From a virus, in the IMG/VR virus record IMGVR_UViG_3300042888_001941, positions 64,001 through 128,000 of that record: 64,000 nucleotides of DNA; one strand, 5' to 3'. Position numbers and translations under genes: made by a program. A model generated the notes under the pieces. It had not been told where the DNA came from, made no database searches, and saw nothing but the letters and a program-made list of their open reading frames with translations. Positions 38,058 through 50,743 of the stretch are shown piece by piece; within the stretch, counting starts at the first letter, position 1; the number at the start of each line of letters is the position of its first letter.

Positions 38058-38351
38058 CTATTCCGCGGTGTTTTCTAGCAAACCTACCTCGTAGCCACAA
38101 CCTGCGTATCCAGCAATATCAACCCAAGTGTCAGGCTGATACCCAGATTTTGACGCGTATCGCGCAACCTTCAACCCAACCATCATCATTGCAACATCTT
38201 CACGAGTGATAGGCACGCTGAGAATTATAGACCAGACCTTTGCTATACGTTCAAAGTTTTCTTCTGGTCCGCCGTACTGCGCATCTCTGTCACCAGTAAT
38301 AATAGATGCCGCGGTGCGTAAAGCCTCTACTCTAGGAAGATTTTCGCTCAT
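38058..38351 (-). CDS. DUF6378-like all-alpha protein, possibly related to nucleotide hydrolases
   Basis: GDR...YG.PEENF.RIA..W...DVA.MM..LK.AR...D.WVD.AGYA. Confidence 0.7.
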   Translation of the reverse strand: MSENLPRVEALRTAASIITGDRDAQYGGPEENFERIAKVWSIILSVPITREDVAMMMVGLKVARYASKSGYQPDTWVDIAGYAGCGYEVGLLENTAE

Positions 38352-38542
38352 TCTTGACCTACCTTTGTGCGAACAGTTACCCTAGCGTTTAGCAAAGCGT
38401 CAAGCTCAGTGATGTTCATTTCTGCTGATATAGGAAGAGTTGCCTCAGTGTCGTTTGCAAGTTTCTTCCACTTAAACTCCGCTTGCTCACGCAGTTCTTG
38501 AAAGTCATTCCCGCTAACTGTAAACTCAACCGTAGCTCTCAT
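38348..38542 (-). CDS. Hypothetical protein
   Basis: 64-aa ORF translationally coupled on both sides. Confidence 0.55.
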   Translation of the reverse strand: MRATVEFTVSGNDFQELREQAEFKWKKLANDTEATLPISAEMNITELDALLNARVTVRTKVGQE

Positions 38543-38961
38543 TAGCGTATTCTTTTCTGCAGAAGATGCGGCGTGTAGTGCGCGCCATCAAGAACTGGCG
38601 TCTTATCGTCCATAGACTTAAAGATAATGTCGCCATAACGAACTCCAACAACTTTTCCGCGGCGTCCGTTATGCATAGCACCAGTAGATCCGTCATACGC
38701 GTCAGCCTTAACGCGGACCTCATCGCCTACCAGTATAGACCCTGGTTGCGCATCAACCCATAACTCGTCAGGCTTCTCAGGCACGATAGAGTGACCAAGA
38801 GCTAGCCTGCTGAACAGATCTATTACATCTTTAGTCTGATTGTCGGAAAGCTTCATGCCTCCCCATTCTTCAAGTAGTTTAAGGATAGCGTTACCTACGC
38901 CAACCTTAACCTTTGCTTCTTCCATTTGGGCTCTAACCCACTCAATGTTTACCTCAGGCAT
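38542..38961 (-). CDS. Hypothetical protein with KOW/SH3-like C-terminus
   Basis: VGDEVRV...NGRRGKVVGV; GGAGGG RBS. Confidence 0.6.
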   Translation of the reverse strand: MPEVNIEWVRAQMEEAKVKVGVGNAILKLLEEWGGMKLSDNQTKDVIDLFSRLALGHSIVPEKPDELWVDAQPGSILVGDEVRVKADAYDGSTGAMHNGRRGKVVGVRYGDIIFKSMDDKTPVLDGAHYTPHLLQKRIR

Positions 38962-38962
38962 G

Positions 38963-39448
38963 TTAGTTGTCCCCTCCTATTTCGTCTGGTAAGCACTTTA
39001 CACATATACCAAGATTTCTGCTGCGCCCAACGTCATCAATTGCGCGCTTGCATAGTTCACATTTTACGCCTTCATCTTTAACTTTGTACCCATTAAGCTG
39101 GCGTTCCTTATTGCGTTCCATTTTTTCAATATAGAACTTATCCAGCATTTCGTCTGTTCCACCCGCCGCAACGATGATATTTGCAACAAAGTGAAGAACA
39201 TCCACAGCTTCCTTAACAATTTCCTCGCGGTCCGCGTAAGGAGCATCGTGCTGCCAAGGCTTCCATGAGATAGCCTGGCGCATCTCTGCAAGTTCATCGT
39301 CAATGGCTAGCATGTTCCAGCGCATGTACTCAATCAACTTGCGAATATTCTGTGGCTTATCGCCTGTCATCTCTTCGTAGTTAATGAAGTATACGTTTTC
39401 CTGTAGATCACGTGTGCGACGCAACCAGTTATTAAACAACATTCCCAT
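38963..39448 (-). CDS. All-alpha dCTP/dUTP pyrophosphatase (T4 gp56-like)
   Basis: DELAE...WKPW...KEAVDVLHF..N...FY..K..RN..RQ.NGY follows the gp56/dimeric dUTPase pattern. Confidence 0.78.
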   Translation of the reverse strand: MGMLFNNWLRRTRDLQENVYFINYEEMTGDKPQNIRKLIEYMRWNMLAIDDELAEMRQAISWKPWQHDAPYADREEIVKEAVDVLHFVANIIVAAGGTDEMLDKFYIEKMERNKERQLNGYKVKDEGVKCELCKRAIDDVGRSRNLGICVKCLPDEIGGDN

Positions 39449-39450
39449 CG

Positions 39451-40470
39451 TTATACCTTTCCACTGTATAGCTTTAATGATTCAGTCAATGTAATTGCTG
39501 CATCTCGTTTGGTTGGGATTGCGTTTAAGTACGCGCTCCTTTGATCTTTTGCTAGTTGCATTCTTTCTTCTTGCGACATATGCTCAATTGCAGATGCAAG
39601 CTGCATCCATGAACTTCCAATGAAGCCACTTTCACGCCAGTCAGTAGCAACTGGAGTTAGAGCATTGAGACACTGAACTATGCGGTATGTCCACCATGTT
39701 CCGTTCTGGTGAGGGCTAATCAAAGCTCCTGTGCCACGAGCAATTTGATCTGCTACCTTATCGTCTGCCCAACCTTTATTCCACTTCATAGGAACTGTAG
39801 GATTGGCAAGCATGGCAATGGTTGATTTAGTCCATGGAGAAGAAAAGTTTTCTACTACCCATTTATCAGTTCGTTCAGAGTCAGAAGGTTCTGGCTCTGT
39901 GATTAAGTACCTATCAAGGTTAATTCCTTTAAGACTATTTCGCGCTGGTTCATGCAGTTGCTCTTGAATGTTTTCCTGCGCGGTCCACGGTAGCGTTGGG
40001 TACAACGTAGTAGCCCACTCGTTCGTAAGAAGCGCGTCTACAGTCTCTAGGAGACTCTTTAAGACATCAGGAGCGTTAGCTTGCGTATAACCTTTGCGAT
40101 ATGAGTAAAAAGGCTTCACAAGGTTGTCTGGGTTCTTTTTAATGGCGCGTAGACTAGACACGATGCGCGTAGGCTCTGGCGCGTCAATATAGAAAGATAG
40201 ACGACTGTCACCGCGAAGTAAACCTATAACCTTAAGAGCTCCATAGGTTCTATTTGCACTAAGACTAGTGATAGGGCTTAATCCAACAAGAATTTTGTTA
40301 AAACTCTTTAGGTCATCAAGCGTCCAGGACATTTCAGGATCTGATTGAGTGACCTCGTGCCCTTGTTGAGTAAGCACGTGTACTAGCAAACTTGCAAACG
40401 ATAACGTGCGTTTGTTTGCGTCTGCTGATACGTGTGGAGCAGACATGCCAGTTATAAGAATTTTGCTCAT
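39451..40470 (-). CDS. GT-B glycosyltransferase, DNA beta-glucosyltransferase-like (paralogue 2)
   Basis: KILITG...L...GHEV...DLKSFNKILVGLSP..SL...FYID; C-terminal ALISP....WW..R; paralogous to 40467..41678. Confidence 0.6.
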   Translation of the reverse strand: MSKILITGMSAPHVSADANKRTLSFASLLVHVLTQQGHEVTQSDPEMSWTLDDLKSFNKILVGLSPITSLSANRTYGALKVIGLLRGDSRLSFYIDAPEPTRIVSSLRAIKKNPDNLVKPFYSYRKGYTQANAPDVLKSLLETVDALLTNEWATTLYPTLPWTAQENIQEQLHEPARNSLKGINLDRYLITEPEPSDSERTDKWVVENFSSPWTKSTIAMLANPTVPMKWNKGWADDKVADQIARGTGALISPHQNGTWWTYRIVQCLNALTPVATDWRESGFIGSSWMQLASAIEHMSQEERMQLAKDQRSAYLNAIPTKRDAAITLTESLKLYSGKV

Positions 40471-41678
40471 GCACGAGTCCCATCTGCGTTTAACGCAATA
40501 CCTTTGTCCTCACGAACGGCACGCTCAATGATGCGATTACAGTGCTCAACAAACGCTGAGTACTCAGGGATGTAAGGCTTAAGTGCTTCCTGTTGCGCAA
40601 TTGCCGCCGCAGCTAATTCAGCATCACTCATCTTCTCAACATCAGCAATTGTAAGCTTATAGGCGTCACCTAATGGATCACCTTCGCCCTTATCAGTAAC
40701 AAGAATAGACCCCACGTGCGCTGCGTATAGGAAACGACTACGCCACCAGCCAGAACCAGCGTGTGGGTAAGGTGGTGAAAGAATACCCCAGTGATTATTG
40801 TAGAACTCAAGTACGTCCTGCTCTGTGTCAAAGCGTTGGCCGCCAAGCTTCTTAATAAGTTTACGACTGCCTACAATTTCAACGGGCCACTCTAATGATT
40901 TACGTTCTAGCCAATTATCGTGCGGCATGAGAGCGCCAAGTACCCATGCACGCTTTTTATCAGCCGCAGGTTTTGCAATCACGGGCTGTAACGTAGGAAT
41001 GATAGTTGCTGTTGGGTCAAGAGCTTCAATAGGACCTAATTCATCAGGCATACGCTTGCGAACAATTGACCTATCACCAAATCCATACATAGGGCATACT
41101 GGAACCATGCCAGCTTCCCATCGCTTATCTACAAGATCAGTTGCTGCTTGAACAAGACGCTTTTCCCATGGTTTAATGTTTTCATCGTTGTCCATCATGT
41201 AATAACGTTCGATGTAGCACTTTTTCGCCGCCGCAGGGTTAACCTCACGGATTCTTTCAAGTGCAGCTTCAATGTCTGCGCGACTAAAGTAAGTTGCGCC
41301 TTCTTCACCGCGATGTTCAGTTCCTACAAGCAGATGCTTATACAACATCGCAGGTTTACGAATTAGCGCACGTGCTCCGTTGAATACAGTATTAAACTGC
41401 CAATCATCAAAGAAACCAACACAAGGAATGCCAGATGACAAAGCGTAGAGTGCACCCATCGCACCTTGGCGACCATTTAATGAGTTAAGGGGTGCAAGAT
41501 TGATCCACAGTACGTCATAAGATGACAGGTCTTCGCCAGGTGTAATCTTGCGCCAGTCAACATCGTGACCAGACTCACGCAATGCCCGAGCAATAGACGC
41601 AGGTACGTCAATCTTTTGAATAGTTCTTTTTTCTGTGTTTATCTGCAAAGCAGTAAACCCACTCATTAGAACTTTCAT
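40467..41678 (-). CDS. GT-B glycosyltransferase, DNA beta-glucosyltransferase-like (paralogue 1)
   Basis: DLSSYDVLWINLAPLNSLNG and GFFDDWQF resemble T4 BGT DVNDYDRLIVVNSSINFFGG and YLFTDIRL (recalled); ILSPPY...GWWRSR. Confidence 0.62.
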   Translation of the reverse strand: MKVLMSGFTALQINTEKRTIQKIDVPASIARALRESGHDVDWRKITPGEDLSSYDVLWINLAPLNSLNGRQGAMGALYALSSGIPCVGFFDDWQFNTVFNGARALIRKPAMLYKHLLVGTEHRGEEGATYFSRADIEAALERIREVNPAAAKKCYIERYYMMDNDENIKPWEKRLVQAATDLVDKRWEAGMVPVCPMYGFGDRSIVRKRMPDELGPIEALDPTATIIPTLQPVIAKPAADKKRAWVLGALMPHDNWLERKSLEWPVEIVGSRKLIKKLGGQRFDTEQDVLEFYNNHWGILSPPYPHAGSGWWRSRFLYAAHVGSILVTDKGEGDPLGDAYKLTIADVEKMSDAELAAAAIAQQEALKPYIPEYSAFVEHCNRIIERAVREDKGIALNADGTRA

Positions 41679-41757: not shown

Positions 41758-42324
41758 TTAGAACGGTGCTGCCGGTGGAGCCGCTGCTACAGCAGGTGCT
41801 GCTTCAGGGGCTGGTGCGGGTACTGCCTCAGCAACAGGTGCAGGTGCTGGAGCTGGTGCAGGTGCTGGTGCAGGTGCTGGTGCAGCAGCTGCAACTGGTG
41901 CACCTGGTGCAGGTATTGCAGATGTGTAGTAGTTCTTGATTTCGTTCTTCTTCTGACCCTGCCAGGTGCGAGAAGTAACAGCCGCACGGAATGCACGACC
42001 ACGAATCGCTTGCTCAATCTGAGCGTTTGATGGGTTAGTTGCGAAGAACTCGCGACCAAGACCAAGTGCCATCATCTTACGGAAGAACATTCCGAGAGCT
42101 GCGTTGTTGTCTGGTGTAACTACGAGGTTGTCCCAGATAAGTCGCTTTGCGTGCGCGCCATTTTGAACCTGTGCCTTAATAGCGAACATTGTTTTGCCAG
42201 ACTGTGAAGTCTTAGCAGTTGCTTCCACGATGACTAAATCATAGTCACCGTCTGGAAGTGGATCGTAGCCAGTTGATACTTCACCAGCTTCTTTGACGAG
42301 ATCTCCCCAATTGAGTGTACTCAT
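41758..42324 (-). CDS. DUF669-type single-stranded DNA-binding protein
   Basis: YDPLPDGDY...S.SGK.M...G....R.IWDN...KNEIK; Pro/Ala tail ending PF. Confidence 0.75.
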   Translation of the reverse strand: MSTLNWGDLVKEAGEVSTGYDPLPDGDYDLVIVEATAKTSQSGKTMFAIKAQVQNGAHAKRLIWDNLVVTPDNNAALGMFFRKMMALGLGREFFATNPSNAQIEQAIRGRAFRAAVTSRTWQGQKKNEIKNYYTSAIPAPGAPVAAAAPAPAPAPAPAPAPAPVAEAVPAPAPEAAPAVAAAPPAAPF

Positions 42325-42330
42325 AGCGGG

Positions 42331-43101
42331 TTAGTTTCCTTTCGTAGTTGGAGTTGCTTGTGCTTTTGGTCCGAAAATCATGTCGAGCATGCGTTCGATT
42401 CCAAGGTCTTGCTGTTCAACGATCTTTCCAAGTCGACCTTGTACTCGCTCGCCTGCTTCGTACTCGTCTGTACGTTCTACATACATACGTCTTGCCTTGA
42501 ACGGTGGTTGCAGTGGATCTGGATTTGGATGTGTCTCCACTGTAATTGCGCCAAGAATGTCGTAGAAGTATGGTGCTTGAATTGCAAGCTGACCCTGTAG
42601 GTACGGACGTGAACGACCGTCTGCTCCAGGACGAGCCATAGCAGTTAGCACAACAGCTTCTAGAGGTTGTGTAGGGTGCATTGTAAGGTCACGTAGGTCA
42701 CGCAATAGCGCACCCATATGACGAAGCAATTCGCCCCATTGTTGCATCTTCATTTGTTCAGTACCTGCAATTGAATCCATGCACTTCACTTGAAGTTCAG
42801 AGATAGAGTCAATGATGAGTGACTTGAACTGATGCTTTCCAGTTTGTAACCACTGGAATGTTTTAAGAACAACATCGTAGTCGCGAACGTTCACGACAAC
42901 TGTGTCCCAGGTGCCATCGGCAACTGGAGGTTCTTCTCGAATTGGATCCCAATACTTTACGGTGATAGGTAGGAAACGATGCCCACCTTCAACGTCAAGC
43001 ATGAGACGTGGATATGGTGCTGTCACCGCAAAGGTTGATTTTCCAACCTTTGACTCGCCATACACCATGATAGTGACCGAACGTTGTACTTCAGACATCA
43101 C
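42331..43101 (-). CDS. Sak4-like AAA ATPase (ssDNA annealing/recombination)
   Basis: YGESKVGKST, LD.EGG, IIDSISE. Confidence 0.8.
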   Translation of the reverse strand: MMSEVQRSVTIMVYGESKVGKSTFAVTAPYPRLMLDVEGGHRFLPITVKYWDPIREEPPVADGTWDTVVVNVRDYDVVLKTFQWLQTGKHQFKSLIIDSISELQVKCMDSIAGTEQMKMQQWGELLRHMGALLRDLRDLTMHPTQPLEAVVLTAMARPGADGRSRPYLQGQLAIQAPYFYDILGAITVETHPNPDPLQPPFKARRMYVERTDEYEAGERVQGRLGKIVEQQDLGIERMLDMIFGPKAQATPTTKGN

Positions 43102-43140
43102 TGCTTCCTTTCATCTTTTTGTTTGTTTGCTTTTGTAACA

Positions 43141-44073
43141 TTATGCATTTCCTTTTTTCTCTTCCGTAGACTTGTAATAGTCGTACGGATCAGCGGACTG
43201 GAAGGCGTCTTCAATTGCAGCCTCAGCGGCAGACCCATCATCAAACATAGGACAGATGCTGAAGAATGAGCATTTCCACTTGCAATCACGCGTTGCGTGT
43301 GGGTAGGCAATAAATCTATGATCTCCGCCTTCGTCAAGGTACTTGCGAGTATTCATCATGTCGGTAAGTACTCCGTGAATACGCTGCCAGAATGAGCGCA
43401 AGGCAAACACGTTGTGACGTACTTCCATCTGCTCATAGAAGGGAGGACGCGCATTTGCAGAGCGCTTTACCTTCTTGAGCATAGTAAAGATTCCACCCTC
43501 AGAGCGTTCACCTTCTTTGTTCTGCGCTGTCTCGAGCATCATATAGGTAAGAATCTGTTCGTTCATGTGCGCCATAGACGCAAAGTCAGTAAACGAACCA
43601 CCGACTGTCTTGAAGTCGCGGAACATACGCACACCGTCAGCCTTACGACGAACACGCATATCAATCTTGCCTTGCAGAATAACACTGTCGTCCATAAGAG
43701 GCATTTCAATAATTTCTTCAGTAGAAATCATTTCTAATTCAGCATCAATGCCGTTCTCTTCAACCCACTGTATGTACCCATCAAGCATGATGCGCCCAAG
43801 TTCAGCCTCGGACTCAAGGTCATAGGTATCACGGTAGCTTTCAATAAGCTTTTGCTTATCAATTTCAACAAGTTGTGAGTGCGCCTCAAGCAAAGGTATG
43901 TTCTTTGAGTAGTACATATCTAGAGCTTCGTGAACGCGTGAACCAAGCGCAAGTGCGCCTGTCATCTGTTGCGTCTTAGGTTGTAAGCGACGGTAATAAC
44001 TCAACCACCATCTCCTACGACAATCTTTGAAGGTTTGGATCTCTGAGTTAGAGATTCGTATAGGTTGGGTCAT
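43141..44073 (-). CDS. PD-(D/E)XK (RecB/Cas4-like) exonuclease
   Basis: SNSEI..FKDC.RRW, G..VH.AL, GKID, DFKT, CKWKC.F..IC. Confidence 0.85.
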   Translation of the reverse strand: MTQPIRISNSEIQTFKDCRRRWWLSYYRRLQPKTQQMTGALALGSRVHEALDMYYSKNIPLLEAHSQLVEIDKQKLIESYRDTYDLESEAELGRIMLDGYIQWVEENGIDAELEMISTEEIIEMPLMDDSVILQGKIDMRVRRKADGVRMFRDFKTVGGSFTDFASMAHMNEQILTYMMLETAQNKEGERSEGGIFTMLKKVKRSANARPPFYEQMEVRHNVFALRSFWQRIHGVLTDMMNTRKYLDEGGDHRFIAYPHATRDCKWKCSFFSICPMFDDGSAAEAAIEDAFQSADPYDYYKSTEEKKGNA

Positions 44074-45875
44074 AGTTTTCCTGCCTTATCGTCCTTGAGT
44101 AGTGATAGAAGCTTTTCTTTATCGCGAACAATTTGTTCAAAGTTATCAGCCTTAGTTTCGAGAACCTGAATAACACGTTCCTCAATAGTTCCATCAGTTA
44201 CATAGTCTGTAACGATAATTGAGTCGTGAATTTCAGATCCAATTCTATGAACACGGTCAAGTGCTTGGCGATGATCAACTAGTGACCAAGGACGCTGCAG
44301 CATGATAAGACGACGAGCTGCAGTCAGTGTAATGCCAACACCGCCAGCCTGTGCTGTAAATAGAATCCATTTAATCTTGCCAGATTGAAAGTCGTCAACC
44401 GCTTGTTGGCGCTCATCTTCATCCTGCATTCCAGTGATGAGACCGTGCTCAATCTTTTCCTTAGTAAGCTCAGCGCTTAGCAAGTAAATTAGTTGACGTG
44501 ATACTGCGCAAACGGCAACGGAGTCATCACCAAAGTCTCCAGCCTTCATGTCGTCAATAACTGCATCTACCTTTGCAGATGGCGCAATAAGTGATGTTGT
44601 GATTTCGCCCGTCTCTTCATCTACAGCCATTTCAGCGTATGAACTAGCGAACTGCAGTAGTCGAATAGTCTGAGTTAGCGGACTTGGAGCTGTTATAGCG
44701 TCGCCGTCTTCTAACTCGGCAATCATAAGATCGCGCATCTGGTTGTAAGCCTTTTGCTGTTTAGTGCTCATCTCAACATCGCGACGTTCAAACATCATTT
44801 CTGGGAGCCAAGGAAGTACCTTTGCCTTTAGCATACGACGCATTCTTGGGTTAAGTCCTTGATAGAACTCTTGTTCCATATGAGGCTTGATGCCTAGAAC
44901 CATCATGCCGCCAAAGGCATTCAGCATAGTGTTAACCATGCGTTCAATCCAACGTGTCTTGCTTGGCCACTCTTCAGGGCTAATCCAGTGAAGGATTGCC
45001 CATAGGTCAAGCACATTGTTTGCAATAGGTGTACCAGTTAGCGCGTAACGAATATCAGCATTTCCAGTTGCAGCCCATAGCGCACGTGTCTGCTTAGATT
45101 TTGGCTCCTTAGAGCGGTGAATTTCATCTGCAATTACTGCCCTAAAGTCGATCTTGTTAAGTTCTCGTATGTGAACCTCGCAACGATTCTCTGTAACCTT
45201 CTCATCGTGGCCGCCGCAGTCCTTGCAACGAGCAAGCGCAACTGACCCATAGGACGCTAATCGTGAGTGAGTGCGCAGTGATTCCCAGTTGATAACATAG
45301 ATATCTGCATCTTCCTCGAACTGTTTACGGCGTTGAGCAGTAGATCCTTTGATAACCACCACCTTGCGACCTGGCCACCATCTGTCAAACTCACGCTTCC
45401 AGTTTTTCTTTAATGTATTAGGGCACACAATAAGCGCTGGGAAGATTTCTTCACCGCCATCTTGTAACCATTTAAGCGCACGAATTGCTTGAGCTGTTTT
45501 ACCTAAACCAGGTTCATCTGCAAGTAAAGCTCTACGGGCTGTTGCTAGAAACTTGACGCCCGCGCGTTGATGAGGGAACAGGTCCTCGTTGCCCTCTTCC
45601 AGGGCCTCGAGTTCACGAAGTTCGTTCGCTGGGGTAATACGTGTCGCCAATTCATTGGCCGCCCAGGACCCTAATCTAGGTCCTATAGTAAGGTCAGTTT
45701 TGAAGGTAGAACGTAGCGCTAGGCATGTTGCCCAACTTGTAGGCACGGACCACAACTGCGCACCTGGGTCCCATTTAGCTCCAGGTATAGATTTGCAAAG
45801 TTCCTTAAAGCGCCACTCTGCATTTATAACTATGCGCTTGTTTGATTCGTCAAGCTCTACGGCTACTGCCACCAA
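44070..45875 (-). CDS. SNF2-family helicase
   Basis: LADEPGLGKT, DEIH, LTGTP, QALDRVHRIG; true start may be the GTG at 45872. Confidence 0.9.
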   Translation of the reverse strand: MVAVAVELDESNKRIVINAEWRFKELCKSIPGAKWDPGAQLWSVPTSWATCLALRSTFKTDLTIGPRLGSWAANELATRITPANELRELEALEEGNEDLFPHQRAGVKFLATARRALLADEPGLGKTAQAIRALKWLQDGGEEIFPALIVCPNTLKKNWKREFDRWWPGRKVVVIKGSTAQRRKQFEEDADIYVINWESLRTHSRLASYGSVALARCKDCGGHDEKVTENRCEVHIRELNKIDFRAVIADEIHRSKEPKSKQTRALWAATGNADIRYALTGTPIANNVLDLWAILHWISPEEWPSKTRWIERMVNTMLNAFGGMMVLGIKPHMEQEFYQGLNPRMRRMLKAKVLPWLPEMMFERRDVEMSTKQQKAYNQMRDLMIAELEDGDAITAPSPLTQTIRLLQFASSYAEMAVDEETGEITTSLIAPSAKVDAVIDDMKAGDFGDDSVAVCAVSRQLIYLLSAELTKEKIEHGLITGMQDEDERQQAVDDFQSGKIKWILFTAQAGGVGITLTAARRLIMLQRPWSLVDHRQALDRVHRIGSEIHDSIIVTDYVTDGTIEERVIQVLETKADNFEQIVRDKEKLLSLLKDDKAGKL

Positions 45876-45954
45876 TCAATCCTTTCGTCGTTATGTATAC
45901 ATACTAACACGCTTTTACAAAAAAGAAACTACATTTTGACCTAGTAAGTGGTTT

Positions 45955-46407
45955 TTATTGAAGTAGGCGTAATGGCTTCCAACCTACCTTTACACAGCGG
46001 AGTAGCCCATGGCGTATCGCATCAAGTGCGTGGCCTTCGCCACCACGGTGCCAATACTCTAGTTTCTTTAGTTTTGGATTATCAAACATTGCCTTAGCGT
46101 CTGCAGGAGATTGAAAGTAGATGTCATCTGCCTTTCTCCCTGCGTCCATAAGACACTGCTTGAGAATACCAATCTGCTCCAGTGAGTAAGGCGCCTGTGA
46201 GTTTTTTACCGTCTGCATGTTGATGGTAAATCTTTCACAGACAACCTCAGCCTCAGGATAAAGACTTAGTGTTTCACGAATAGGTTTGGCGTACTCGTCT
46301 TGCTGGTATTCTCCAGACCAAAGCATCACTGGCTCTTGCCCTTGCTCAAGCGAGAACAAAGCCATTCCTGTCGCCTTACCTGGGTCTACTGATAGTACGT
46401 ATTTCAT
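45955..46407 (-). CDS. RuvC-like Holliday-junction resolvase
   Basis: SVDPGKATG, VVCE, HALDAIRH. Confidence 0.7.
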   Translation of the reverse strand: MKYVLSVDPGKATGMALFSLEQGQEPVMLWSGEYQQDEYAKPIRETLSLYPEAEVVCERFTINMQTVKNSQAPYSLEQIGILKQCLMDAGRKADDIYFQSPADAKAMFDNPKLKKLEYWHRGGEGHALDAIRHGLLRCVKVGWKPLRLLQ

Positions 46408-48230
46408 CGGTATTTTTCGCCCCAGTTCTCCATAGGTCCGTCGATTCCAGATGTAAGTGGGACTTCCCAGCCTTCTCTAGTAGTCATGCATTCTTGCACA
46501 ACCTTCATAATCTCTTGCGCGTCCTTACGCGGAGCATTCAACACAATTTCGTCGTGTACAGGAACGATAAGAAGTTCGGTTAAATCTGCCTGGTCGAGTT
46601 TAATCAAATTAGACTTAAAGACTTCAGCCGCGCCTCCTTGAATTAAGTAATTCACAAGCGTGTAAGCTCTATCTTCATCGCAAGGAAGCCTACGGCCTGT
46701 CCATGTGTAGACGTATCCTTGTCCTTCTTGCCTAAAACGTCTAACGCCTGCGTCTTCAATTTGCTTTTGGAAGAACGCCATTCCAGGGAATCTCATATCA
46801 AACGCATCTGATACCGTGCGCATCTGAGGCTCAGCAACGCCTGCAGTTAACGCTTGCTTTGCAACGCCTGCGCCATAGAGTCGTCCGTAGACAGTTCCTT
46901 TAATAAGATTACGGCGCTTATCTGAGCGCTGCATCGTTGGGTCATTGTAGATCTCGCGTCCAATCTCGGTAAACGGATCTGAGCCTGTAGCATCTGCGCG
47001 ATTAAACAACGTGATGAGATTCTGGTCACCAGACAGAGATGCGAACATACGGAACTCAACCTGGTCAAGGTCCGAGGTAATAATGACGTGGTCTTCATCC
47101 TTAGGTATAAACGCTGTGCGAACAGTGTCATCACCCTTAGGCAGTGTCTGCAGCGCTGGGTTTTGTATAGACATACGTGACGTACGAGCGCCAAGAGTCT
47201 TGACAGATGGGTGAACAAACCCATTCACATTGTCGTTAATAAAGTTAGCAAAGTAGGTATTGGCAAGTTTATCTGCCTTACGCTGCTTAAGAACAACCTC
47301 GGCTAGAGCCTTTACCTCATCATTTCCTGTAATTGAAAGTAACTTAAGTTGATCCTTAGATGCAGACTTCTGTCCTGAAGGTGTAAATTCAAAGATCTCT
47401 CCGCCAAGAGATTCAAACAACCGCACCAATTGAATGTTACTTGAGATTGATACGCCGTTATACTTTTCCTTTGCCCAGCCTTTAACAGACTCAGCATAGG
47501 CGGTTAGCTCATCAAACTTACGCTTAGAGTAATCTAGGTCAATACGAGCGCCATTGATTTCCATACGAGTAACAATGCGGCGTGCTGCCATTTCCAATTC
47601 ATACGCCTTGTTGTACGGTCCTCCTGGGCCACACTTTTCCCAGAACATTTCCCACAGACGCATTGTAAGAACGCAGTCGAGTGCGCCGTACGCCCAGTAC
47701 GGTTGGAAGTTAGTAGGAACAGTTCCCCACGTCCAGCCATTTTCAATAAGTGAAATATCAAGTGATTCCTGCAATGCAACTGCACGACCATCAACGTGTA
47801 ATGCAGCAAGACGTTTTAGCGCCCCAGACCCAAGCGGATCAATGATGTGCGCCATAATCATAGTGTCATGCGCACGGTGCCAAGGCAGTTTCCAATCTGA
47901 CTGAATATCAAACCAGCGAGCTTCAAACGCAATGTTGTGGCAGACTATAGGTCCATCAAAGCGCTCCATTGCCTCATAGAACACGCCTTTCCACTGGTCC
48001 CATGGAATCGACCAACCTTGCTCTGCATCGCCCACCTGGACCAAACGTAGGCGTCCATGCCATGGTGATAGCGCATGGTCACGTGGGTTACCAGGCAACT
48101 CACCAGTTTCAGTGTCGATTGCGATAGCGTTATGTGGACGGCGTTGGCCAATCCACTCAAGAAACGCTTGAGCTTTTTCAACGCTGTCAACAAGGTGAAG
48201 TTGAACGTCCTGCATGCCTTTAGTTGTCAT
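46404..48230 (-). CDS. polA: Family A DNA polymerase (3'-5' exonuclease plus polymerase)
   Basis: IDTET, HN..FE, YGALD; motif A DLDQVEFR, motif B RRNLIKGTVYGRLYG, motif C VHDE. Confidence 0.93.
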   Translation of the reverse strand: MTTKGMQDVQLHLVDSVEKAQAFLEWIGQRRPHNAIAIDTETGELPGNPRDHALSPWHGRLRLVQVGDAEQGWSIPWDQWKGVFYEAMERFDGPIVCHNIAFEARWFDIQSDWKLPWHRAHDTMIMAHIIDPLGSGALKRLAALHVDGRAVALQESLDISLIENGWTWGTVPTNFQPYWAYGALDCVLTMRLWEMFWEKCGPGGPYNKAYELEMAARRIVTRMEINGARIDLDYSKRKFDELTAYAESVKGWAKEKYNGVSISSNIQLVRLFESLGGEIFEFTPSGQKSASKDQLKLLSITGNDEVKALAEVVLKQRKADKLANTYFANFINDNVNGFVHPSVKTLGARTSRMSIQNPALQTLPKGDDTVRTAFIPKDEDHVIITSDLDQVEFRMFASLSGDQNLITLFNRADATGSDPFTEIGREIYNDPTMQRSDKRRNLIKGTVYGRLYGAGVAKQALTAGVAEPQMRTVSDAFDMRFPGMAFFQKQIEDAGVRRFRQEGQGYVYTWTGRRLPCDEDRAYTLVNYLIQGGAAEVFKSNLIKLDQADLTELLIVPVHDEIVLNAPRKDAQEIMKVVQECMTTREGWEVPLTSGIDGPMENWGEKYR

Positions 48231-48699
48231 TCAAGTCCTTAAATATCGTTACATCAATTTCACATTTGGCGAAATACTCAACTGTGGCCTCTGGGTTTCT
48301 ATGAGCTGCAATCGTGCTAACACGCATAACAACTTTAGATACTCCAGAGTTAGAAATCAGCTTTGCGCATTGAATGCACGCTGCGTCGGTAATATACACT
48401 GTCCCGCCCTCAACTCGTGAGCGATCTACGTAGAGAAGCGCATTTGCCTCTGCATGAATAGATGGGCAAGAATCGTAAACGTTATCCAGAGGAGTTTCAC
48501 CGCGAGCACGAGCGCACCAGTTCATGCACTCGCCTTCCGCAGGAAACGTAGCAGCAGGACCGTTGTATCCCGTTGAGCTAATACGTTGATCCTTTGAGAC
48601 TACAACCGCACCTATTTGAGCGCGGCTACAACGAGATCTAAGAGCTACTGTATCTGCGACAGTCATCCACACCTCGTCCCATGATGGACGATTACTCAT
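48220..48699 (-). CDS. dCMP deaminase
   Basis: RS.C.R..IGA, GYNG, HAE.NA, C-x2-C (ACIQC). Confidence 0.88.
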   Translation of the reverse strand: MSNRPSWDEVWMTVADTVALRSRCSRAQIGAVVVSKDQRISSTGYNGPAATFPAEGECMNWCARARGETPLDNVYDSCPSIHAEANALLYVDRSRVEGGTVYITDAACIQCAKLISNSGVSKVVMRVSTIAAHRNPEATVEYFAKCEIDVTIFKDLNDN

Positions 48700-48874
48700 T
48701 CATACCTCGAAACAGCGAGTGCTTCATTGCCTCGGAGACAAGAAACATAGCTTCCCTACGAGAAAATCCAGCAGTCTTTAACTCTTCATACATAACGTGA
48801 AGAGTAATGGAAGCCTCACGTAAAGGAGAAAGATAGAGTTCTTCTGCCTTTTCATGTTCTTCCTTACTTGCCAT
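48692..48874 (-). CDS. Hypothetical protein
   Basis: ATG at 48874 after GAGGAG; LH.MYEEL..AGFSR.EA. Confidence 0.6.
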   Translation of the reverse strand: MASKEEHEKAEELYLSPLREASITLHVMYEELKTAGFSRREAMFLVSEAMKHSLFRGMNE

Positions 48875-49736
48875 TTTCTTTCTCCTCGTTCTTTTCAATA
48901 GCACGAATCATTGCGTTTGCGTACCACTGCTCAAACGGATGTAGATTAAAGAGTAGAGTCTTTTCCTGCTTGTGAATAGCAGCTGTAAGAGCTCCTTCAG
49001 CACGTCGTTGTACCTGTTCCCAGCTAAGTCCAGTAATAGGTGGAATGTCCTCATACGGCTCAGTTGTATGCTTTAGGTTTTCAGCCGCGTCGTAATGCTG
49101 TTCATAGATATGAAGAGATCCAACGTGATGAGCGTACGTGCCTGCTTGAATTCCTAGAACAGATGCCATAGCAATCTGAACACGCGTAAACTGGAAGAAG
49201 TCGTATGCAGCTCCTAGCCATACATCGTTTGAGCGCATGTAAACACTCATGTTAAGTTTATTGTCACGGATACGGAACTGATGCAAGATTGTACACGGGT
49301 AATCGCGCTTACTTGGCAAAAGATCAAGTACTGGATCCCAGATGGTAACAACCGCTTGTCGTGTATCTGGGTCTGCTTTTAATCGCTCAATAACAGGACC
49401 GTACTGGTCAATAGTACGTGAACCGTACGCACCATGGAATAGTCCATTGTCCTCTGCGTAGTTCTTAAACATTGGACCTACTGCCATAACAAGCTTAGGC
49501 GTTGTTGCGCCTGCAAGTAGCTGACATGCTTCAACCGCACCAATACCAGGAACAGTTCCGCGGTTAACACCTAGTGGTAGTGTGTCATGCACATTCTCAA
49601 TGCGAATTATTGCGTCCTCAATCTCACGGGTCTTCATACCGCGAGGAGCAGCCTCTTTACCGTGCTTAAGAACGTGCTGAACAAGGTCAACATAGCCGTT
49701 AACTCCGTCAGGAATGTTAATTATTGCAGTATCCAT
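48864..49736 (-). CDS. Thymidylate-synthase homologue, predicted dCMP-specific (hydroxymethylase/methylase/hydroxylase)
   Basis: PRG..TRE, DTRQAV, DYPCT, MRSNDVWLGAAYD (Asp at the position of ThyA Asn177), GSLHIY. Confidence 0.8.
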   Translation of the reverse strand: MDTAIINIPDGVNGYVDLVQHVLKHGKEAAPRGMKTREIEDAIIRIENVHDTLPLGVNRGTVPGIGAVEACQLLAGATTPKLVMAVGPMFKNYAEDNGLFHGAYGSRTIDQYGPVIERLKADPDTRQAVVTIWDPVLDLLPSKRDYPCTILHQFRIRDNKLNMSVYMRSNDVWLGAAYDFFQFTRVQIAMASVLGIQAGTYAHHVGSLHIYEQHYDAAENLKHTTEPYEDIPPITGLSWEQVQRRAEGALTAAIHKQEKTLLFNLHPFEQWYANAMIRAIEKNEEKENGK

Positions 49737-50743
49737 GGATCATCCTCTTTCAGTTTGTTATCGGCGCTTTGTTGTATTGCTTGTCCATACTCTAGACTGT
49801 TCTTGTAATTAAATCGTCGTACGTGTTGCGGGTGCGGCAGTACATCATACTCGCTTGCAGGAATTCCAGCCGCCATGATTCCTTTTTCGGCGTTTCGTCC
49901 TAAGGCAACAACACGTGGTGACCCAAGGTCTTCCCAGAGATCATACAGATCATCAATGTCAATATCTGCTACGTTAACAATTCCACACTTGGGCCATAGC
50001 TCTGTAGGAAGAGCGCTGAGTAGAAAATCACCGGAGTTATTATCAACAGGCATGAATGGAAGCTTAGTTTCCTCGCCGTACTCCTCAAGGATATTGCGCT
50101 TATCTCCAACAAGCAAAACCTTAGGTGTAGGGCTTCCAATATACGTAGGATACTTTGTAAGAATAGGTTGAACTAGCCCAGACATTGCCTCAGCAACGTC
50201 AACAATATGTTTGGCAAGCTCTGGAACACTATCAAGGCTGTCGGCTGGAGGAGTAAGACGCTCGGTTAAACTTACTGACACGGCTGACGCAATAGAGTAG
50301 TTCTCAAGGATTTCCTTAAGGTCACTTACCTTTACGAACTCGTCACCGCGAGATTCTAGACGACGCTGAATAACATCAAGAGGTTGATACAACCAAAAGG
50401 AGGCAACTCCACGAGACATGAGAAAGAGTTCAACCCAACGCCAACCAGCTTTACCTAGTAGACCAAAGCCGTCGGTGTTTGTGAGAGGACGGTACTTAGG
50501 AGCGTACGTTATTTCGCCCCAGTGCCAGCGGTCTGACAGACCATTGCAATCTTGTGAAAAGTTAATGTGCTCTACACTATTAACGTAATCCTTAAGGACC
50601 CAACGGCGTGTCTCTTCAAGCGGACGACCTTTGTGAAACTGCATGAAGTGCTTATCGGGGTGACGCCGTTTGATTTCATTGGCAACTGCCTCAATAAGCG
50701 AGGTTTTACCAGATGCGTCGGTTCCTTCTATAACTATAAACAT
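49721..50743 (-). CDS. dNMP kinase fused to a uracil-DNA-glycosylase-superfamily domain
   Basis: IEGTDASGKTS, DRWH..E..Y, RL..RGD; C-terminal VLLVGD...LPF...SG.FL...RVVALGRNA...LPHP. Confidence 0.75.
   Translation of the reverse strand: MFIVIEGTDASGKTSLIEAVANEIKRRHPDKHFMQFHKGRPLEETRRWVLKDYVNSVEHINFSQDCNGLSDRWHWGEITYAPKYRPLTNTDGFGLLGKAGWRWVELFLMSRGVASFWLYQPLDVIQRRLESRGDEFVKVSDLKEILENYSIASAVSVSLTERLTPPADSLDSVPELAKHIVDVAEAMSGLVQPILTKYPTYIGSPTPKVLLVGDKRNILEEYGEETKLPFMPVDNNSGDFLLSALPTELWPKCGIVNVADIDIDDLYDLWEDLGSPRVVALGRNAEKGIMAAGIPASEYDVLPHPQHVRRFNYKNSLEYGQAIQQSADNKLKEDDPWILQ

What the first reader, a model, noticed from the sequence alone, without database searches (positions are those of the whole stretch)
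38058..50743. Complete T4-style cytosine replacement and glycosylation pathway in a PolA actinophage
Seen on one strand, wrapped around the replication genes: a dNMP kinase (49721); a TS homologue whose MRSNDVWLGAAYD aligns with T4 dCMP hydroxymethylase MRSNDVVFGFRND (Asp) rather than ThyA (Asn), and which has PCT instead of PCH (48864); a dCMP deaminase; PolA; two BGT-like transferases; a WKPW-type gp56-like dCTPase; and a DUF6378-like protein. Known: this Asp/Asn position sets dCMP versus dUMP specificity, and T4 uses gp56, gp42, gp1 and glucosyltransferases to make glucosyl-hmC. Inference: the genome carries a sugar-modified 5-substituted cytosine (hm-, hydroxy- or methyl-derived) for anti-restriction/anti-CRISPR protection. 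Related gene sets may exist in other actinophages, but the combination with the altered C5-MTase and the kinase-UDG fusion suggests an uncharacterised base.
Basis: partly seen in the sequence, partly recalled or inferred. Interest (0 to 1): 0.85.

Follow-up and report, generated by a model that had tools for sequence, protein, structure and literature searches.

The report
Glycosyl-hydroxymethylcytosine DNA pathway in lake actinophage
This lake-water phage of actinobacteria carries its own versions of the phage T4 enzymes that replace cytosine with hydroxymethylcytosine and add sugar to it, so its DNA is probably sugar-coated against host nucleases; the scheme is known, but had not been pointed out in this phage group.

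Summary
All the genes named lie on the minus strand at the stated coordinates.

- **Thymidylate-synthase (TS) homologue (48864-49736).** It is the only one in the 136-kb genome, and there is no ThyX. It has the catalytic Cys, Asp at E. coli N177 (dCMP), Asp at L143 (non-methyl product) and keeps D169. This matches T4 gp42. It does not match RB69's 5-hydroxy-dCMP synthase (D169N) or ThyA.
- **Other pathway genes.** There is a YorR/thymidylate-kinase-like kinase, an intact dCMP deaminase, and a gp56-like pyrophosphatase (E 2e-11 to T4 gp56).
- **Two paralogous transferase-like proteins.** The 403-aa protein folds confidently (pLDDT 95), and T4 beta-glucosyltransferase is its best PDB match.
- **Where that unannotated family occurs.** It also appears in Gordonia phages, T4-like Aeromonas and Erwinia phages, and a spring siphovirus, all with gp42-type TS. 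In a cyanophage it sits beside a TET oxygenase. In 4 of 8 neighbourhoods inspected it sits next to UDP-galactopyranose mutase.

Best reading (about 0.6): hm-dCTP is made before replication and hmC is glycosylated on DNA.

Not shown: the chemistry itself, completeness of replacement, the sugar, and the roles of DUF6378, the UDG-like kinase tail and the conserved Lys-pocket C5-methylase-like gene.

Verdict: a new member of a known kind. Cultured Gordonia relatives make it testable.

The parts
49721..50743 (-). Two-domain protein, 340 aa. The N-terminal half (about 1-190) is a P-loop nucleotide kinase of the YorR/thymidylate-kinase type and is the proposed hm-dCMP kinase. The C-terminal half (about 200-340) is an alpha/beta domain, possibly UDG-like, of unknown role.
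   Evidence: phrog_761 at 2.8e-13. Profile versus PDB sequences: YorR 2axp at 2.1e-8. AF2 pLDDT 93. Foldseek PDB hits are YorR and thymidylate kinases covering the N-domain only. BFVD best hit is Bacillus phage G gp315, 331 aa, E 4e-15. TIGR00041 scores 23.1 bits against a cut-off of 83.25. C-domain: no Pfam family at E<=10. Atlas lead: 26 of 30 named hits are viral clusters in which 18-36% of members carry PF03167. The kinase half alone is shared with Gordonia phages.
48864..49736 (-). Thymidylate-synthase homologue with the dCMP hydroxymethylase (5hm-dCMP synthase) signature. It is the only TS-family gene in the genome.
   Evidence: PF00303 at 5.5e-29. The best PDB sequence hit is MilA CMP 5-hydroxymethylase at 5.2e-23. 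All NCBIfam thymidylate-synthase equivalogs fall below cut-off. Signature residues: Cys148, Asp145 (=L143), Asp171 (=D169), Asp179 (=N177). One PF00303 match and no PF02511 match in the genome.
48692..48904 (-). Small conserved ORF (70 aa) between the TS homologue and the deaminase. Function unknown.
   Evidence: Homologue found in 44 of 131 related IMG/VR loci; many loci are short fragments. Present in the syntenic long loci.
48220..48699 (-). dCMP deaminase with intact HAE and C..C zinc motifs. Proposed to supply dUMP for host thymidylate synthesis.
   Evidence: PF00383 at 1.6e-18. phrog_174 at 1.3e-42. Sequence read.
46404..48230 (-). Family A DNA polymerase with a 3'-5' exonuclease domain. 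It would have to accept hm-dCTP.
   Evidence: PF00476 at 2.3e-52 and PF01612 at 9.5e-5.
41758..46407 (-). Replication and recombination genes lying between the two halves of the pathway: RuvC-like (45955-46407), SNF2 helicase (44070-45875), PD-(D/E)XK nuclease (43141-44073), AAA_24 RecA-like (42331-43101) and DUF669 (41758-42324).
   Evidence: Pfam matches. phrog_1981, and the DSL-LC01 annotation for RuvC. The order is conserved in the 14 longest of the 80 related loci then held.
40467..41678 (-). GT-B glycosyltransferase-like protein, 403 aa ('GT403'). Its best structural match is T4 beta-glucosyltransferase. Proposed hmC-DNA glycosyltransferase.
   Evidence: AF2 pLDDT 95.3. Foldseek: 1qkj E 1.3e-6, TM 0.51/0.57, and six BGT entries among the first 19 ranks. 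The family has 611 clusters at 50% identity. No Pfam glycosyltransferase family in 0 of 78 members.
39451..40470 (-). Diverged paralogue of GT403, 339 aa ('GT339'). Proposed second transferase (second sugar, second linkage or other sequence context).
   Evidence: BLASTP to GT403 gives E 2e-5 (N-terminal segment) and 5e-5 (C-terminal segment). Orthologues are present in DSL-LC01 (3e-71) and Gordonia phage Mareelih gp124 (2.2e-21). It has its own conserved motifs across 81 distinct orthologues but lacks the family's Arg313. Atlas lead: a related cluster in which 12% of members carry PF13524.
38963..39448 (-). gp56-like all-alpha nucleotide pyrophosphatase (dCTPase/dUTPase type) with a C-terminal CxxC...CxxC tail.
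   Evidence: PF08761 at 4.3e-11. T4 gp56: 30% identity over 115 residues, E 2e-11. Dimeric dUTPases in the PDB at about 1e-3. A fused GT403-like plus dUTPase_2 protein exists, P0288.
38542..38961 (-). Conserved 139-aa protein of unknown function inside the module.
   Evidence: No Pfam or PHROG family. Homologue found in 111 of 131 related loci.
38058..38351 (-). DUF6378 protein. Membership of the pathway is not established.
   Evidence: PF19905 at 4.9e-30. Absent from 0 of 5 other pathway-bearing phage genomes.
36738..37997 (-). C5-cytosine-methylase-like protein with altered cofactor-pocket residues (PCQ->PCS, ENV->ESV, GN->GK). It is conserved with the module but lies outside the finding's coordinates.
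   Evidence: PF00145 at 1e-23. Alignments to M.HaeIII and others. All 53 sequences examined carry PPCS and G-K: window, DSL-LC01, Mareelih and 50 from related loci. Mareelih gp120 matches at 2.4e-78. Compared with CmoX.

Best explanation
The module is a pre-replicative cytosine-replacement pathway of the T4 type, followed by glycosylation on DNA.

**Proposed steps (all activities are inferred, none assayed)**
1. The gp56-like pyrophosphatase hydrolyses dCTP (and probably dUTP) to the monophosphate. This depletes dCTP and feeds dCMP into the pathway.
2. The TS homologue adds the methylene of methylene-tetrahydrofolate to C5 of dCMP. Water then attacks, giving 5-hydroxymethyl-dCMP.
3. The YorR/thymidylate-kinase-like kinase makes hm-dCDP, and host nucleoside-diphosphate kinase makes hm-dCTP.
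4. The phage family A polymerase incorporates hm-dCTP in place of dCTP.
5. The two paralogous BGT-like GT-B enzymes transfer sugar from an NDP-sugar to the hydroxymethyl group in duplex DNA. Two enzymes suggest two linkages, two sequence contexts or a disaccharide. UDP-galactofuranose is a candidate donor in relatives that encode the mutase. This phage encodes no mutase, so the sugar here is open.
6. The dCMP deaminase diverts part of the dCMP to dUMP for the host's thymidylate synthase, because the phage has no dTMP-making enzyme of its own.

The expected pay-off is resistance to restriction and CRISPR nucleases.

**Shown:** gene identities, active-site signatures, the fold, synteny and co-occurrence across lineages.
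For: **TS homologue**
- It carries the gp42-type signature and not the ThyA or 5-hydroxy-dCMP synthase signature. Window: RDYPCT...RSND...AAYD. T4 gp42: SDFMCT...RSND...FRND. RB69 gp48: LEYPCT...RSQN...QLD. ThyA: ALAPCH...RSCD...PFN. The rule is taken from PMC13326640, sections 24 and 28.
- The catalytic Cys, Arg168 and Ser169 (E. coli R166, S167), His209 and Glu69 are invariant in both six-sequence alignments. Asp171 and Tyr211 are invariant in A1 only; in A6, RB69 gp48 differs at both positions.
- There is one PF00303 match and no ThyX in the complete genome. NCBIfam thymidylate-synthase equivalogs score far below their cut-offs, for example 88.8 versus 174.55 bits.

**Pyrophosphatase and kinase**
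- The gp56-like protein matches T4 gp56 at E 2e-11.
- The kinase fold is supported. The kinase sits directly upstream of the TS homologue here, in DSL-LC01 and in Gordonia phages.

**GT403**
- T4 BGT is the top PDB fold match, E 1.3e-6.

**GT403 family travels with hmC-making enzymes in separate lineages**
- Of the 8 other phage records checked, 6 have a gp42-type TS: DSL-LC01, Phendrix, Mareelih, Aeromonas phage 25, Erwinia FBB1 and a Manatee Spring siphovirus.
- One has no TS, but a Tet_JBP oxygenase lies next to the transferase (cyanophage C48C1).
- One has only canonical td, and its match is partial (Vibrio 6E35.1a).

**Natural fusions tie the family to nucleotide and DNA-cytosine enzymes**
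- GT403-like plus dUTPase_2 (P0288).
- C5-methylase-like plus GT403-like (P0369, P0388).

**Conservation**
- The whole module is syntenic in the 14 longest of the 80 related IMG/VR loci then held.
- All 44 full-length TS homologues in the 131 loci, plus 2 partial ones, keep PCT and the specificity Asp.

**Prior survey**
- A metavirome survey reports GT-B DNA transferases associated with TS homologues and dCMP deaminase (bioRxiv 10.1101/2023.12.21.572611, section 9).
Against: - No chemistry has been done. Nothing here shows what is in the virion DNA.
- The BGT link exists only at fold level: 12% identity, rmsd 7.9 A, TM 0.51/0.57. hhalign gives probability 15% over 50 columns. BLASTP is not significant. 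None of the 78 family members matches any Pfam glycosyltransferase family. A profile search of PDB sequences finds nothing.
- GT339 lacks the family's invariant Arg313 and two conserved Gly residues.
- The pyrophosphatase is equally similar to plain dimeric dUTPases, so its dCTP activity is assumed.
- The kinase scores below the dTMP-kinase equivalog cut-off. Its best match is YorR, a protein of unknown substrate. I did not compare it with T4 gp1.
- A conserved C5-cytosine-methylase-like enzyme with an intact catalytic Cys would have no target if every C already carried a C5 substituent. That argues for incomplete replacement or for additional chemistry.
- The deaminase competes for dCMP and could instead act on hm-dCMP.
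- No counterparts of T4's cytosine-DNA nucleases or Alc were identified; I did not search for them specifically.
- Vibrio phage 6E35.1a has a partial homologue of GT403 (residues 290-366 only) but only a canonical td.
- The residue rules come from one paper and a limited set of tested enzymes.
Confidence: 0.62

Rival explanations
1. hm-dC is made and incorporated, but the two GT-B proteins do not act on DNA. They might glycosylate cell-wall polymers, virion proteins or small molecules. The DNA would then carry bare 5-hmC.
For: No sequence-level membership in any DNA glucosyltransferase family. Many GT-B enzymes with non-DNA acceptors score almost as well as BGT, for example VinC, SenB, Gtf3 and PglA. 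The survey notes that about 65% of phage GT contigs have no neighbouring base-modification gene.
Against: BGT is the top fold hit. The genes sit inside the replication module, between the DUF669 gene and the gp56-like gene. Fusions to dUTPase_2 and to a C5-DNA-methylase-like domain exist. The family recurs beside gp42-type TS or TET in 7 of 8 other records checked.
Confidence: 0.12
2. This is ordinary nucleotide metabolism. The TS homologue makes dTMP, the hydrolase is a dUTPase, the kinase is a thymidylate kinase and the DNA is canonical. This is how the public relatives are annotated.
For: DSL-LC01 and the Gordonia phages are annotated as thymidylate synthase, thymidylate kinase and deoxyuridine triphosphatase. 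The PHROG families carry those names.
Against: The residue that reads O4/N3-H of uracil (N177) is Asp, and L143 is Asp. Every NCBIfam thymidylate-synthase equivalog is below cut-off. T4-like phages that carry the same transferase family have a separate canonical td besides the gp42-type enzyme.
Confidence: 0.08
3. The C5 group is not hydroxymethyl. The TS homologue would be a dCMP methylase (5mC, as recalled for Xanthomonas phage XP12) or a flavin-dependent 5-hydroxy-dCMP synthase, with the sugar ether-linked as in RB69.
For: N177D only fixes the substrate, not the product. 5-hydroxy-dCMP synthases also have an acidic residue at 143. Glycosyltransferases accompany both pathways.
Against: D169 is kept (RSND), whereas all tested 5-hydroxy-dCMP synthases have D169N according to PMC13326640 section 28. 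RB69 gp48 reads RSQN in my own alignment. Asp at 143 argues against a methyl product, and a methyl group offers no acceptor for the transferases.
Confidence: 0.07
4. The target is thymine. hm-dCMP would be deaminated by the adjacent deaminase to hm-dUMP, hm-dUTP would replace dTTP, and the transferases would glycosylate hmU.
For: The deaminase is the next large gene after the TS homologue. PDB entry 1y6g, titled T4 alpha-glucosyltransferase in complex with DNA containing an HMU base, is among the fold hits at rank 29.
Against: Known hmU phages use an Asn-type dUMP hydroxymethylase, as in SPO1 gp29. No dTTP- or dTMP-removing enzyme was seen in the module. T4 and Bacillus phage G also pair a deaminase with a gp42-type enzyme.
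Confidence: 0.06

Closest known systems
Phage T4 glucosyl-hydroxymethylcytosine pathway (gp56 dCTPase, gp42 dCMP hydroxymethylase, gp1 dNMP kinase, alpha- and beta-glucosyltransferases, Cd deaminase)
   Same: - A gp42-type TS homologue with the same three signature residues.
- A gp56 homologue.
- A dCMP deaminase.
- A GT-B transferase whose best fold match is T4 BGT.
- Two transferases, as in T4.
   Different: - The polymerase is family A rather than family B.
- The kinase is YorR/thymidylate-kinase-like and carries an extra C-terminal domain. It was not compared with T4 gp1.
- The transferases share no detectable sequence family with BGT and are paralogues of each other.
- There is no phage td.
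- A conserved C5-methylase-like gene is present.
- The virus is an actinobacterial siphovirus-like phage: it has a WhiB gene and an SPP1 Dit-like tail protein.
Actinomycetia phage DSL-LC01 (OQ999401) and Gordonia phages of Forzavirus, Godonkavirus and GMA2
   Same: - The same block of kinase, Asp-type TS, deaminase and PolA.
- In DSL-LC01 and Mareelih, GT403-like, GT339-like, gp56-like and Lys-pocket C5 enzyme genes as well.
   Different: - Public annotation calls these genes thymidylate synthase, thymidylate kinase, dUTPase and methyltransferase. The passages I read in the DSL-LC01 paper treat the mutase and methylase as auxiliary metabolic genes and do not mention base replacement.
- DSL-LC01 adds a UDP-galactopyranose mutase between the two transferases.
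- The Gordonia kinases lack the C-terminal domain.
RB69/DLP3 arabinosyl-5-hydroxycytosine pathway (PMC13326640)
   Same: A TS homologue acting on dCMP, a thymidylate-kinase-like kinase in the cluster, a dCTPase and several DNA glycosyltransferases.
   Different: The diagnostic D169N is absent here. No arabinose-nucleotide genes were seen in the module.
Phage MT/TET (5mYOX) plus glycosyltransferase hypermodification clusters (PMC8256090, listing only; bioRxiv 10.1101/2023.12.21.572611, passages and section 9 read)
   Same: BGT-like GT-B enzymes glycosylate 5hmC in DNA. The GT403 family occurs in such a cluster in cyanophage C48C1, in the order TET, GT, mutase.
   Different: This genome has no Tet_JBP match (the control rang nowhere). 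Here hmC is expected to be made at the nucleotide level.
SpCmoX, DNA cytosine C5-carboxymethyltransferase (PMC12783734)
   Same: The C5-methylase-like neighbour has a basic residue (Lys) where M.HhaI has Asn304 and CmoX has Arg350.
   Different: The motif is CPPC rather than the SPPC used to define CmoX. The genome has no CmoA. This gene is not part of the finding's coordinates.

Membership tests
T4-type dCMP hydroxymethylase (5hm-dCMP synthase) | Thymidylate-synthase fold with the catalytic Cys (E. coli C146) | tested here: met
   PF00303 at 5.5e-29. Cys148 is invariant in A1 and A6.
T4-type dCMP hydroxymethylase (5hm-dCMP synthase) | Asp at the position of E. coli N177 (dCMP rather than dUMP) | tested here: met
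   Asp179 aligns with T4 gp42 Asp. ThyA and SPO1 gp29 have Asn.
T4-type dCMP hydroxymethylase (5hm-dCMP synthase) | Acidic residue at the position of E. coli L143 (lets water reach the methylene intermediate) | tested here: met
   Asp145 (RDYPCT) versus T4 SDFMCT and ThyA ALAPCH. The rule comes from PMC13326640, section 24.
T4-type dCMP hydroxymethylase (5hm-dCMP synthase) | Hydroxymethylation of dCMP with methylene-tetrahydrofolate | not testable with these tools
   Needs an enzyme assay or the in vivo assay described in PMC13326640.
5-hydroxy-dCMP synthase (RB69 gp48 type) | Asn at the position of E. coli D169 | tested here: not met
   The window has RSND (Asp171). RB69 gp48 has RSQN. The rule comes from section 28.
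Canonical thymidylate synthase ThyA | Asn177, His147 and a score above the curated equivalog cut-offs | tested here: not met
   Asp and Thr at these positions. NCBIfam equivalogs score 88.8 versus 174.55, 83.7 versus 327 and 79.9 versus 108.35 bits.
T4 beta-glucosyltransferase-like DNA glycosyltransferase | GT-B fold (two Rossmann-like domains) most similar to BGT | tested here: met
   Met for GT403: pLDDT 95.3; 1qkj is rank 1 at E 1.3e-6. GT339 was not folded; it is linked by paralogy only.
T4 beta-glucosyltransferase-like DNA glycosyltransferase | Sequence-level relation to BGT or to any glycosyltransferase family | tested here: not met
   BLASTP E 0.19 and 1.0. hhalign probability 15%. Matches in 0 of 78 members. 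No PDB sequence hit.
T4 beta-glucosyltransferase-like DNA glycosyltransferase | Catalytic Asp after the fourth strand of the N-domain (BGT Asp100) | tested here: inconclusive
   Asp91-Asp92 follow strand 86-90, and Asp92 is nearly invariant in the family. Placing it opposite BGT LFTD100 is my inference; I had no residue-level structural alignment.
T4 beta-glucosyltransferase-like DNA glycosyltransferase | Transfers sugar to 5hmC in duplex DNA | not testable with these tools
   Only context speaks for it.
gp56-type dCTPase/dUTPase (dimeric dUTPase / all-alpha NTP pyrophosphatase) | Family match and similarity to T4 gp56 | tested here: met
   PF08761 at 4.3e-11, above the cut-off. gp56 at E 2e-11.
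gp56-type dCTPase/dUTPase (dimeric dUTPase / all-alpha NTP pyrophosphatase) | Hydrolyses dCTP/dCDP | not testable with these tools
   The WK.W motif is shared by dUTP-only enzymes.
dTMP kinase (equivalog) | Score above the curated cut-off | tested here: not met
   TIGR00041 scores 23.1 bits against 83.25. The fold is of this class.
Uracil-DNA glycosylase superfamily (C-domain of the kinase) | Match to PF03167 or to a solved UDG | tested here: inconclusive
   No Pfam family at E<=10. A profile search of PDB sequences gives kinases only. Foldseek lists are filled by the kinase half. Atlas lead at 0.93 to clusters with 18-36% PF03167. The VIA-align libraries were unavailable.
CmoX DNA C5-carboxymethyltransferase (for the neighbouring C5 enzyme) | SPPC motif, Arg at M.HhaI N304, and CmoA in the genome | tested here: not met
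   CPPC and Lys. No TIGR00740 match in the genome.

The most novel reading that the evidence does not exclude
The DNA of this phage group may carry a base that has not been described.

- It would be 5-hydroxymethylcytosine bearing a galactofuranose or a two-sugar unit, built by the two paralogues of a large, unannotated BGT-like family. In 4 of 8 neighbourhoods inspected, that family sits beside UDP-galactopyranose mutase.
- On top of this, the conserved Lys-pocket C5-methylase-like enzyme would put a second, non-methyl group on cytosines that escape replacement.
- The UDG-like tail of the kinase would police deaminated or unmodified bases.
Probability: 0.18. Interest if true: 0.75.

Novelty: new member of a known kind. 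Interest (0 to 1): 0.5.

Why it matters
- **Reach of the strategy.** If true, T4-style cytosine replacement plus glycosylation operates in actinobacterial siphovirus-like phages with a family A polymerase. This includes an abundant freshwater group: 114 close relatives of the transferase in IMG/VR.
- **Public annotation.** It would correct records that call these genes thymidylate synthase, thymidylate kinase and dUTPase.
- **Practical effects.** Such DNA resists many restriction enzymes and Cas nucleases. It can also bias library preparation and nanopore base-calling, which matters for metagenomic abundance estimates and for engineering actinophages.
- **An unannotated family.** The BGT-like family has 611 clusters at 50% identity and no Pfam model. 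Its repeated link to UDP-galactopyranose mutase gives a concrete lead to new DNA sugars.
- **Testability.** Cultured Gordonia phages with the same module, on a laboratory host, allow a one-day LC-MS test.

Tried and rejected
- **DNA match in the phage collection.** Megablast of the region found nothing.
- **Sequence link from GT403 or GT339 to T4 BGT.** BLASTP was not significant. hhalign gave probability 15%. A Pfam scan of 78 family members found none with a glycosyltransferase family and one with DUF4884 at 0.006. A profile search of PDB sequences gave only flavodoxin at E>1. I therefore rest on the fold alone.
- **UDG identity of the kinase tail.**
  - Pfam at E<=10 found nothing.
  - A search for short stand-alone homologues found one unannotated 126-aa protein.
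  - The Foldseek PDB and BFVD lists were dominated by the kinase half.
  - This is left as a lead.
- **Independent lineages from IMG/VR.** Two scans returned only the window's own clade, with GT403 at 67-100% identity. Those 131 loci show conservation, not independent co-occurrence.
- **Context of the C5-methylase-GT fusions.** P0369 was not found in the viral, genome or metagenome collections. P0388 was found once, on a 4.6-kb contig. An NDP-sugar epimerase/dehydratase lies next to it, and no TS or TET is in view.
- **CmoX reading of the C5 enzyme.** It was considered and not adopted: no CmoA in the genome and CPPC instead of SPPC.
- **TET route in this genome.** No Tet_JBP match. The two 2OG oxygenases at 51804-52981 are of the PF13640 type.
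- **Mutase in this genome.** None.
- **DUF6378 as a pathway member.** Found in 0 of 5 other genomes.
- **Literature searches in the held library.**
  - 'dCMP hydroxymethylase' with 'Gordonia phage': 0 papers.
  - 'hydroxymethylcytosine' with 'actinobacteriophage': 2 papers, judged from the search listing (titles and abstract starts) to be unrelated.
  - GMA2, Gordonia and thymidylate synthase: 1 unrelated paper.
  - GodonK, Phendrix, Forzavirus, Godonkavirus and 'cluster DV': no paper on DNA modification among the 15 listed of 25.
  - UDP-galactopyranose mutase with hydroxymethylcytosine and phage: 2 papers, neither on galactofuranosyl-hmC.
  - Supplements were closed. The contig lists of the 2023 preprint and the tables of PMC13326640 may already include this clade.

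Full report
**What the window is.** The window is bases 64001-128000 of a 136,434-base IMG/VR virus record, rated complete by CheckV. GC content is about 47%. A WhiB gene, an SPP1 Dit-like tail protein and a CHAP endolysin lie around the region. The nearest named relative is Actinomycetia phage DSL-LC01, a metagenome-assembled phage from Dishui Lake (62% identity in the TS homologue). Its authors predicted an Actinomycetia host (passages read).

**The observation.**
- Pfam gives thymidylate synthase (48864-49736, 5.5e-29), dCMP deaminase (1.6e-18), family A polymerase (2.3e-52), dUTPase_2 (38963-39448, 4.3e-11) and DUF6378 (4.9e-30).
- The genes in between are RuvC-like, SNF2 helicase, PD-(D/E)XK nuclease, AAA_24 and DUF669.
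- The quoted motifs are present and align as claimed.

**The TS homologue.** It is the only PF00303 match in the genome, and there is no ThyX.
- I aligned it with real sequences of T4 gp42, RB69 gp48, SPO1 gp29, Bacillus phage G gp319 and E. coli ThyA.
- It keeps the catalytic Cys, the Arg-Ser pair, His and Glu of the family.
- It has Asp at E. coli N177, Asp at L143, and keeps Asp at D169.
- Lee et al. 2026 (PMC13326640, sections 24 and 28 read) give the rules. N177D gives dCMP specificity. An acidic residue at 143 goes with non-methyl products. D169N marks the flavin-dependent 5-hydroxy-dCMP synthases.
- In my alignment RB69 gp48 indeed reads RSQN, while T4 gp42 and the window read RSND.
- The best PDB sequence hit is the CMP hydroxymethylase MilA. 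All NCBIfam thymidylate-synthase equivalogs are far below cut-off.
- The enzyme is therefore best read as a dCMP hydroxymethylase. All 44 full-length homologues in the related loci, plus 2 partial ones, keep PCT and the Asp.

**Pyrophosphatase, kinase and deaminase.**
- The 161-aa protein is 30% identical to T4 gp56 over 115 residues (E 2e-11). It also resembles dimeric dUTPases, so its preference for dCTP is assumed.
- The 340-aa protein folds with pLDDT 93. Its first half matches SPbeta YorR and thymidylate kinases, but it scores below the dTMP-kinase equivalog cut-off.
- The second half of that protein has no Pfam match even at E<=10. An Atlas feature search points to small viral proteins, some carrying PF03167 UDG. 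I could not confirm the fold, because the aligners that could have shown a second domain were not available.
- The closest viral structure is Bacillus phage G gp315. It lies in a module with an alpha-glucosyltransferase, a deaminase and a TS homologue that also has the hydroxymethylase signature.
- The kinase half alone is shared with Gordonia phages.
- The deaminase has intact zinc motifs.

**The two transferase candidates.** The 403-aa and 339-aa proteins are paralogues. Neither has a Pfam family; the 339-aa protein has no PHROG family, and the 403-aa one matches only phrog_14998, of unknown function.
- The 403-aa protein belongs to a large family: 611 clusters at 50% identity with E<=0.001.
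- With 78 family members as the alignment, AlphaFold gives pLDDT 95.3.
- Foldseek ranks T4 beta-glucosyltransferase first (1qkj, E 1.3e-6, TM 0.51/0.57). Five more BGT entries fall in the first 19 ranks, followed by other GT-B enzymes, the phage HY126 glycosyltransferase and T4 alpha-glucosyltransferase.
- At sequence level there is no link.
- An Asp-Asp pair follows the fourth strand where BGT has Asp100. The equivalence is my inference.
- GT339 evolves faster (median 58% versus 86% identity in related loci). It lacks Arg313 of the family but has its own conserved motifs across 81 distinct orthologues.

**Does the transferase family go with hmC?** The IMG/VR loci I fetched all belong to the window's own clade, with the whole module in the same order. 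They add conservation only, so I looked at other lineages.
- *Spread.* tblastn against 50,697 phage records found the family in 56 records: Aeromonas 19, Vibrio 17, Gordonia 13 and a few others.
- *Records with a gp42-type TS.* I checked 8 records for TS homologues. Six have a gp42-type enzyme: DSL-LC01, Phendrix, Mareelih, Aeromonas phage 25 and Erwinia FBB1 (both also have a canonical td), and a 56-kb Manatee Spring siphovirus.
- *Record with a TET oxygenase.* Cyanophage C48C1 has no TS homologue. Its transferase lies between a Tet_JBP oxygenase (3.3e-17) and a UDP-galactopyranose mutase. That is the other known way of making 5hmC.
- *The exception.* Vibrio phage 6E35.1a matches only residues 290-366 and has a canonical td alone.
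- *Fusions.* The family is joined to dUTPase_2 (P0288), to a C5-DNA-methylase-like domain (P0369, P0388) and to a class I methyltransferase (P0271, P0291).
- *Mutase neighbours.* The mutase is the direct neighbour in 4 of 8 neighbourhoods inspected: DSL-LC01, Aeromonas 25, FBB1 and C48C1. It is not a neighbour in Mareelih, the Manatee siphovirus, Vibrio 6E35.1a or this window. This genome has no mutase.

**The actinophage module.** DSL-LC01 and Gordonia phage Mareelih share with the window GT403-like, GT339-like, gp56-like and C5-methylase-like genes (E 1e-44 to 2e-191 and 2e-20 to 2e-78). They also share the block of kinase, TS, deaminase and PolA.
- The C5-methylase-like protein keeps the PPC cysteine. 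It reads PCS for PCQ, E(S/C)V for ENV and G-K for G-N in all 53 sequences examined.
- The Asn replaced by Lys is M.HhaI N304, the residue that is Arg350 and binds the carboxyl of Cx-SAM in CmoX (PMC12783734, section 10).
- The genome has no CmoA, and the motif differs from the SPPC used to define CmoX.
- An enzyme that attacks C5 of cytosine is hard to reconcile with total replacement of C. This is the main unexplained point.

**Comparison with what is known.** The logic and four of the enzyme types are those of T4. A 2023 preprint that mined IMG/VR reports GT-B DNA transferases associated with TS homologues (about 28% of GT-B pathways). It also reports dCMP deaminase as a marker of one of the two pathway types (ThyS or 5mYOX) (section 9 read). 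I could not see its supplements, so this clade may already be in its lists. In the library searches named under Tried and rejected, I found no paper that assigns such a pathway to actinophages or to these Gordonia phages.

**Verdict.** It is sharpened to glycosylated 5-hydroxymethylcytosine made before replication, with confidence about 0.6. It is a new member of a known kind and has three open features: the sugar, the kinase tail and the Lys-pocket C5 enzyme. The scan had noted the same genes before on this genome. Those notes agree with my results but were not used as evidence.

Noticed in passing
L149 (Phage C48C1, OQ984149) 5586-9033: A three-gene cluster in a Kyanoviridae cyanophage: Tet_JBP oxygenase (3.3e-17), a GT403-family transferase, and UDP-galactopyranose mutase (5.6e-52). 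The record has no TS homologue.
   Followed up: partly
L138 (Aeromonas phage 25) 4896-8167; L139 (Erwinia phage FBB1) 4937-7062; L001 (DSL-LC01) 22906-26051: UDP-galactopyranose mutase sits directly beside GT403-family genes in T4-like phages and in DSL-LC01. This suggests UDP-galactofuranose as the sugar donor for hmC-DNA.
   Followed up: partly
proteins P0369, P0388 (L155 827-3295), P0288, P0271, P0291: Natural fusions of the GT403 family with three partners: a C5-DNA-methylase-like domain (PCA, ESV, Arg at the N304 position), dUTPase_2, and a class I methyltransferase. The P0388 gene is followed by an NDP-sugar epimerase/dehydratase.
   Followed up: partly
L154 (Bacillus phage G) 2278-8014: Phage G carries an alpha-glucosyltransferase (gp313), a two-domain kinase (gp315, the best BFVD match of the window's kinase), a deaminase (gp317) and a TS homologue (gp319). 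The TS homologue reads KDVPCT...RSND...PYD, the hydroxymethylase signature.
   Followed up: partly
window 36738-37997 (-): A C5-cytosine-methylase-like gene with Lys at the M.HhaI N304 position. The Lys is conserved in all 53 relatives examined, including Gordonia phage Mareelih. The gene resembles CmoX at that one residue, but the genome has no CmoA.
   Followed up: partly
window 38963-39448 (-), residues about 130-153: The gp56-like protein ends in a CxxC...CxxC tail that is absent from the region aligned to T4 gp56. It may be a zinc ribbon.
   Followed up: no
window 51804-52981 (-): Two adjacent genes: 52382-52981 is a 2OG-Fe(II) oxygenase of the PF13640 type (1.9e-17), while 51804-52394 has no family match. 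Neither is of the Tet_JBP type. They lie just upstream of the pathway.
   Followed up: no
window 35889-36416 (-) and 34903-35418 (-): A pyrimidine-dimer DNA glycosylase (PF03013, 3e-20) and a WhiB regulator (2.7e-16) follow the module. The same order is seen in DSL-LC01.
   Followed up: no
window 9162-11795 (-): A primase-polymerase fused to a D5-type helicase (Prim-Pol 2.2e-31, D5_N 9.5e-25). It lies far from the PolA block.
   Followed up: no
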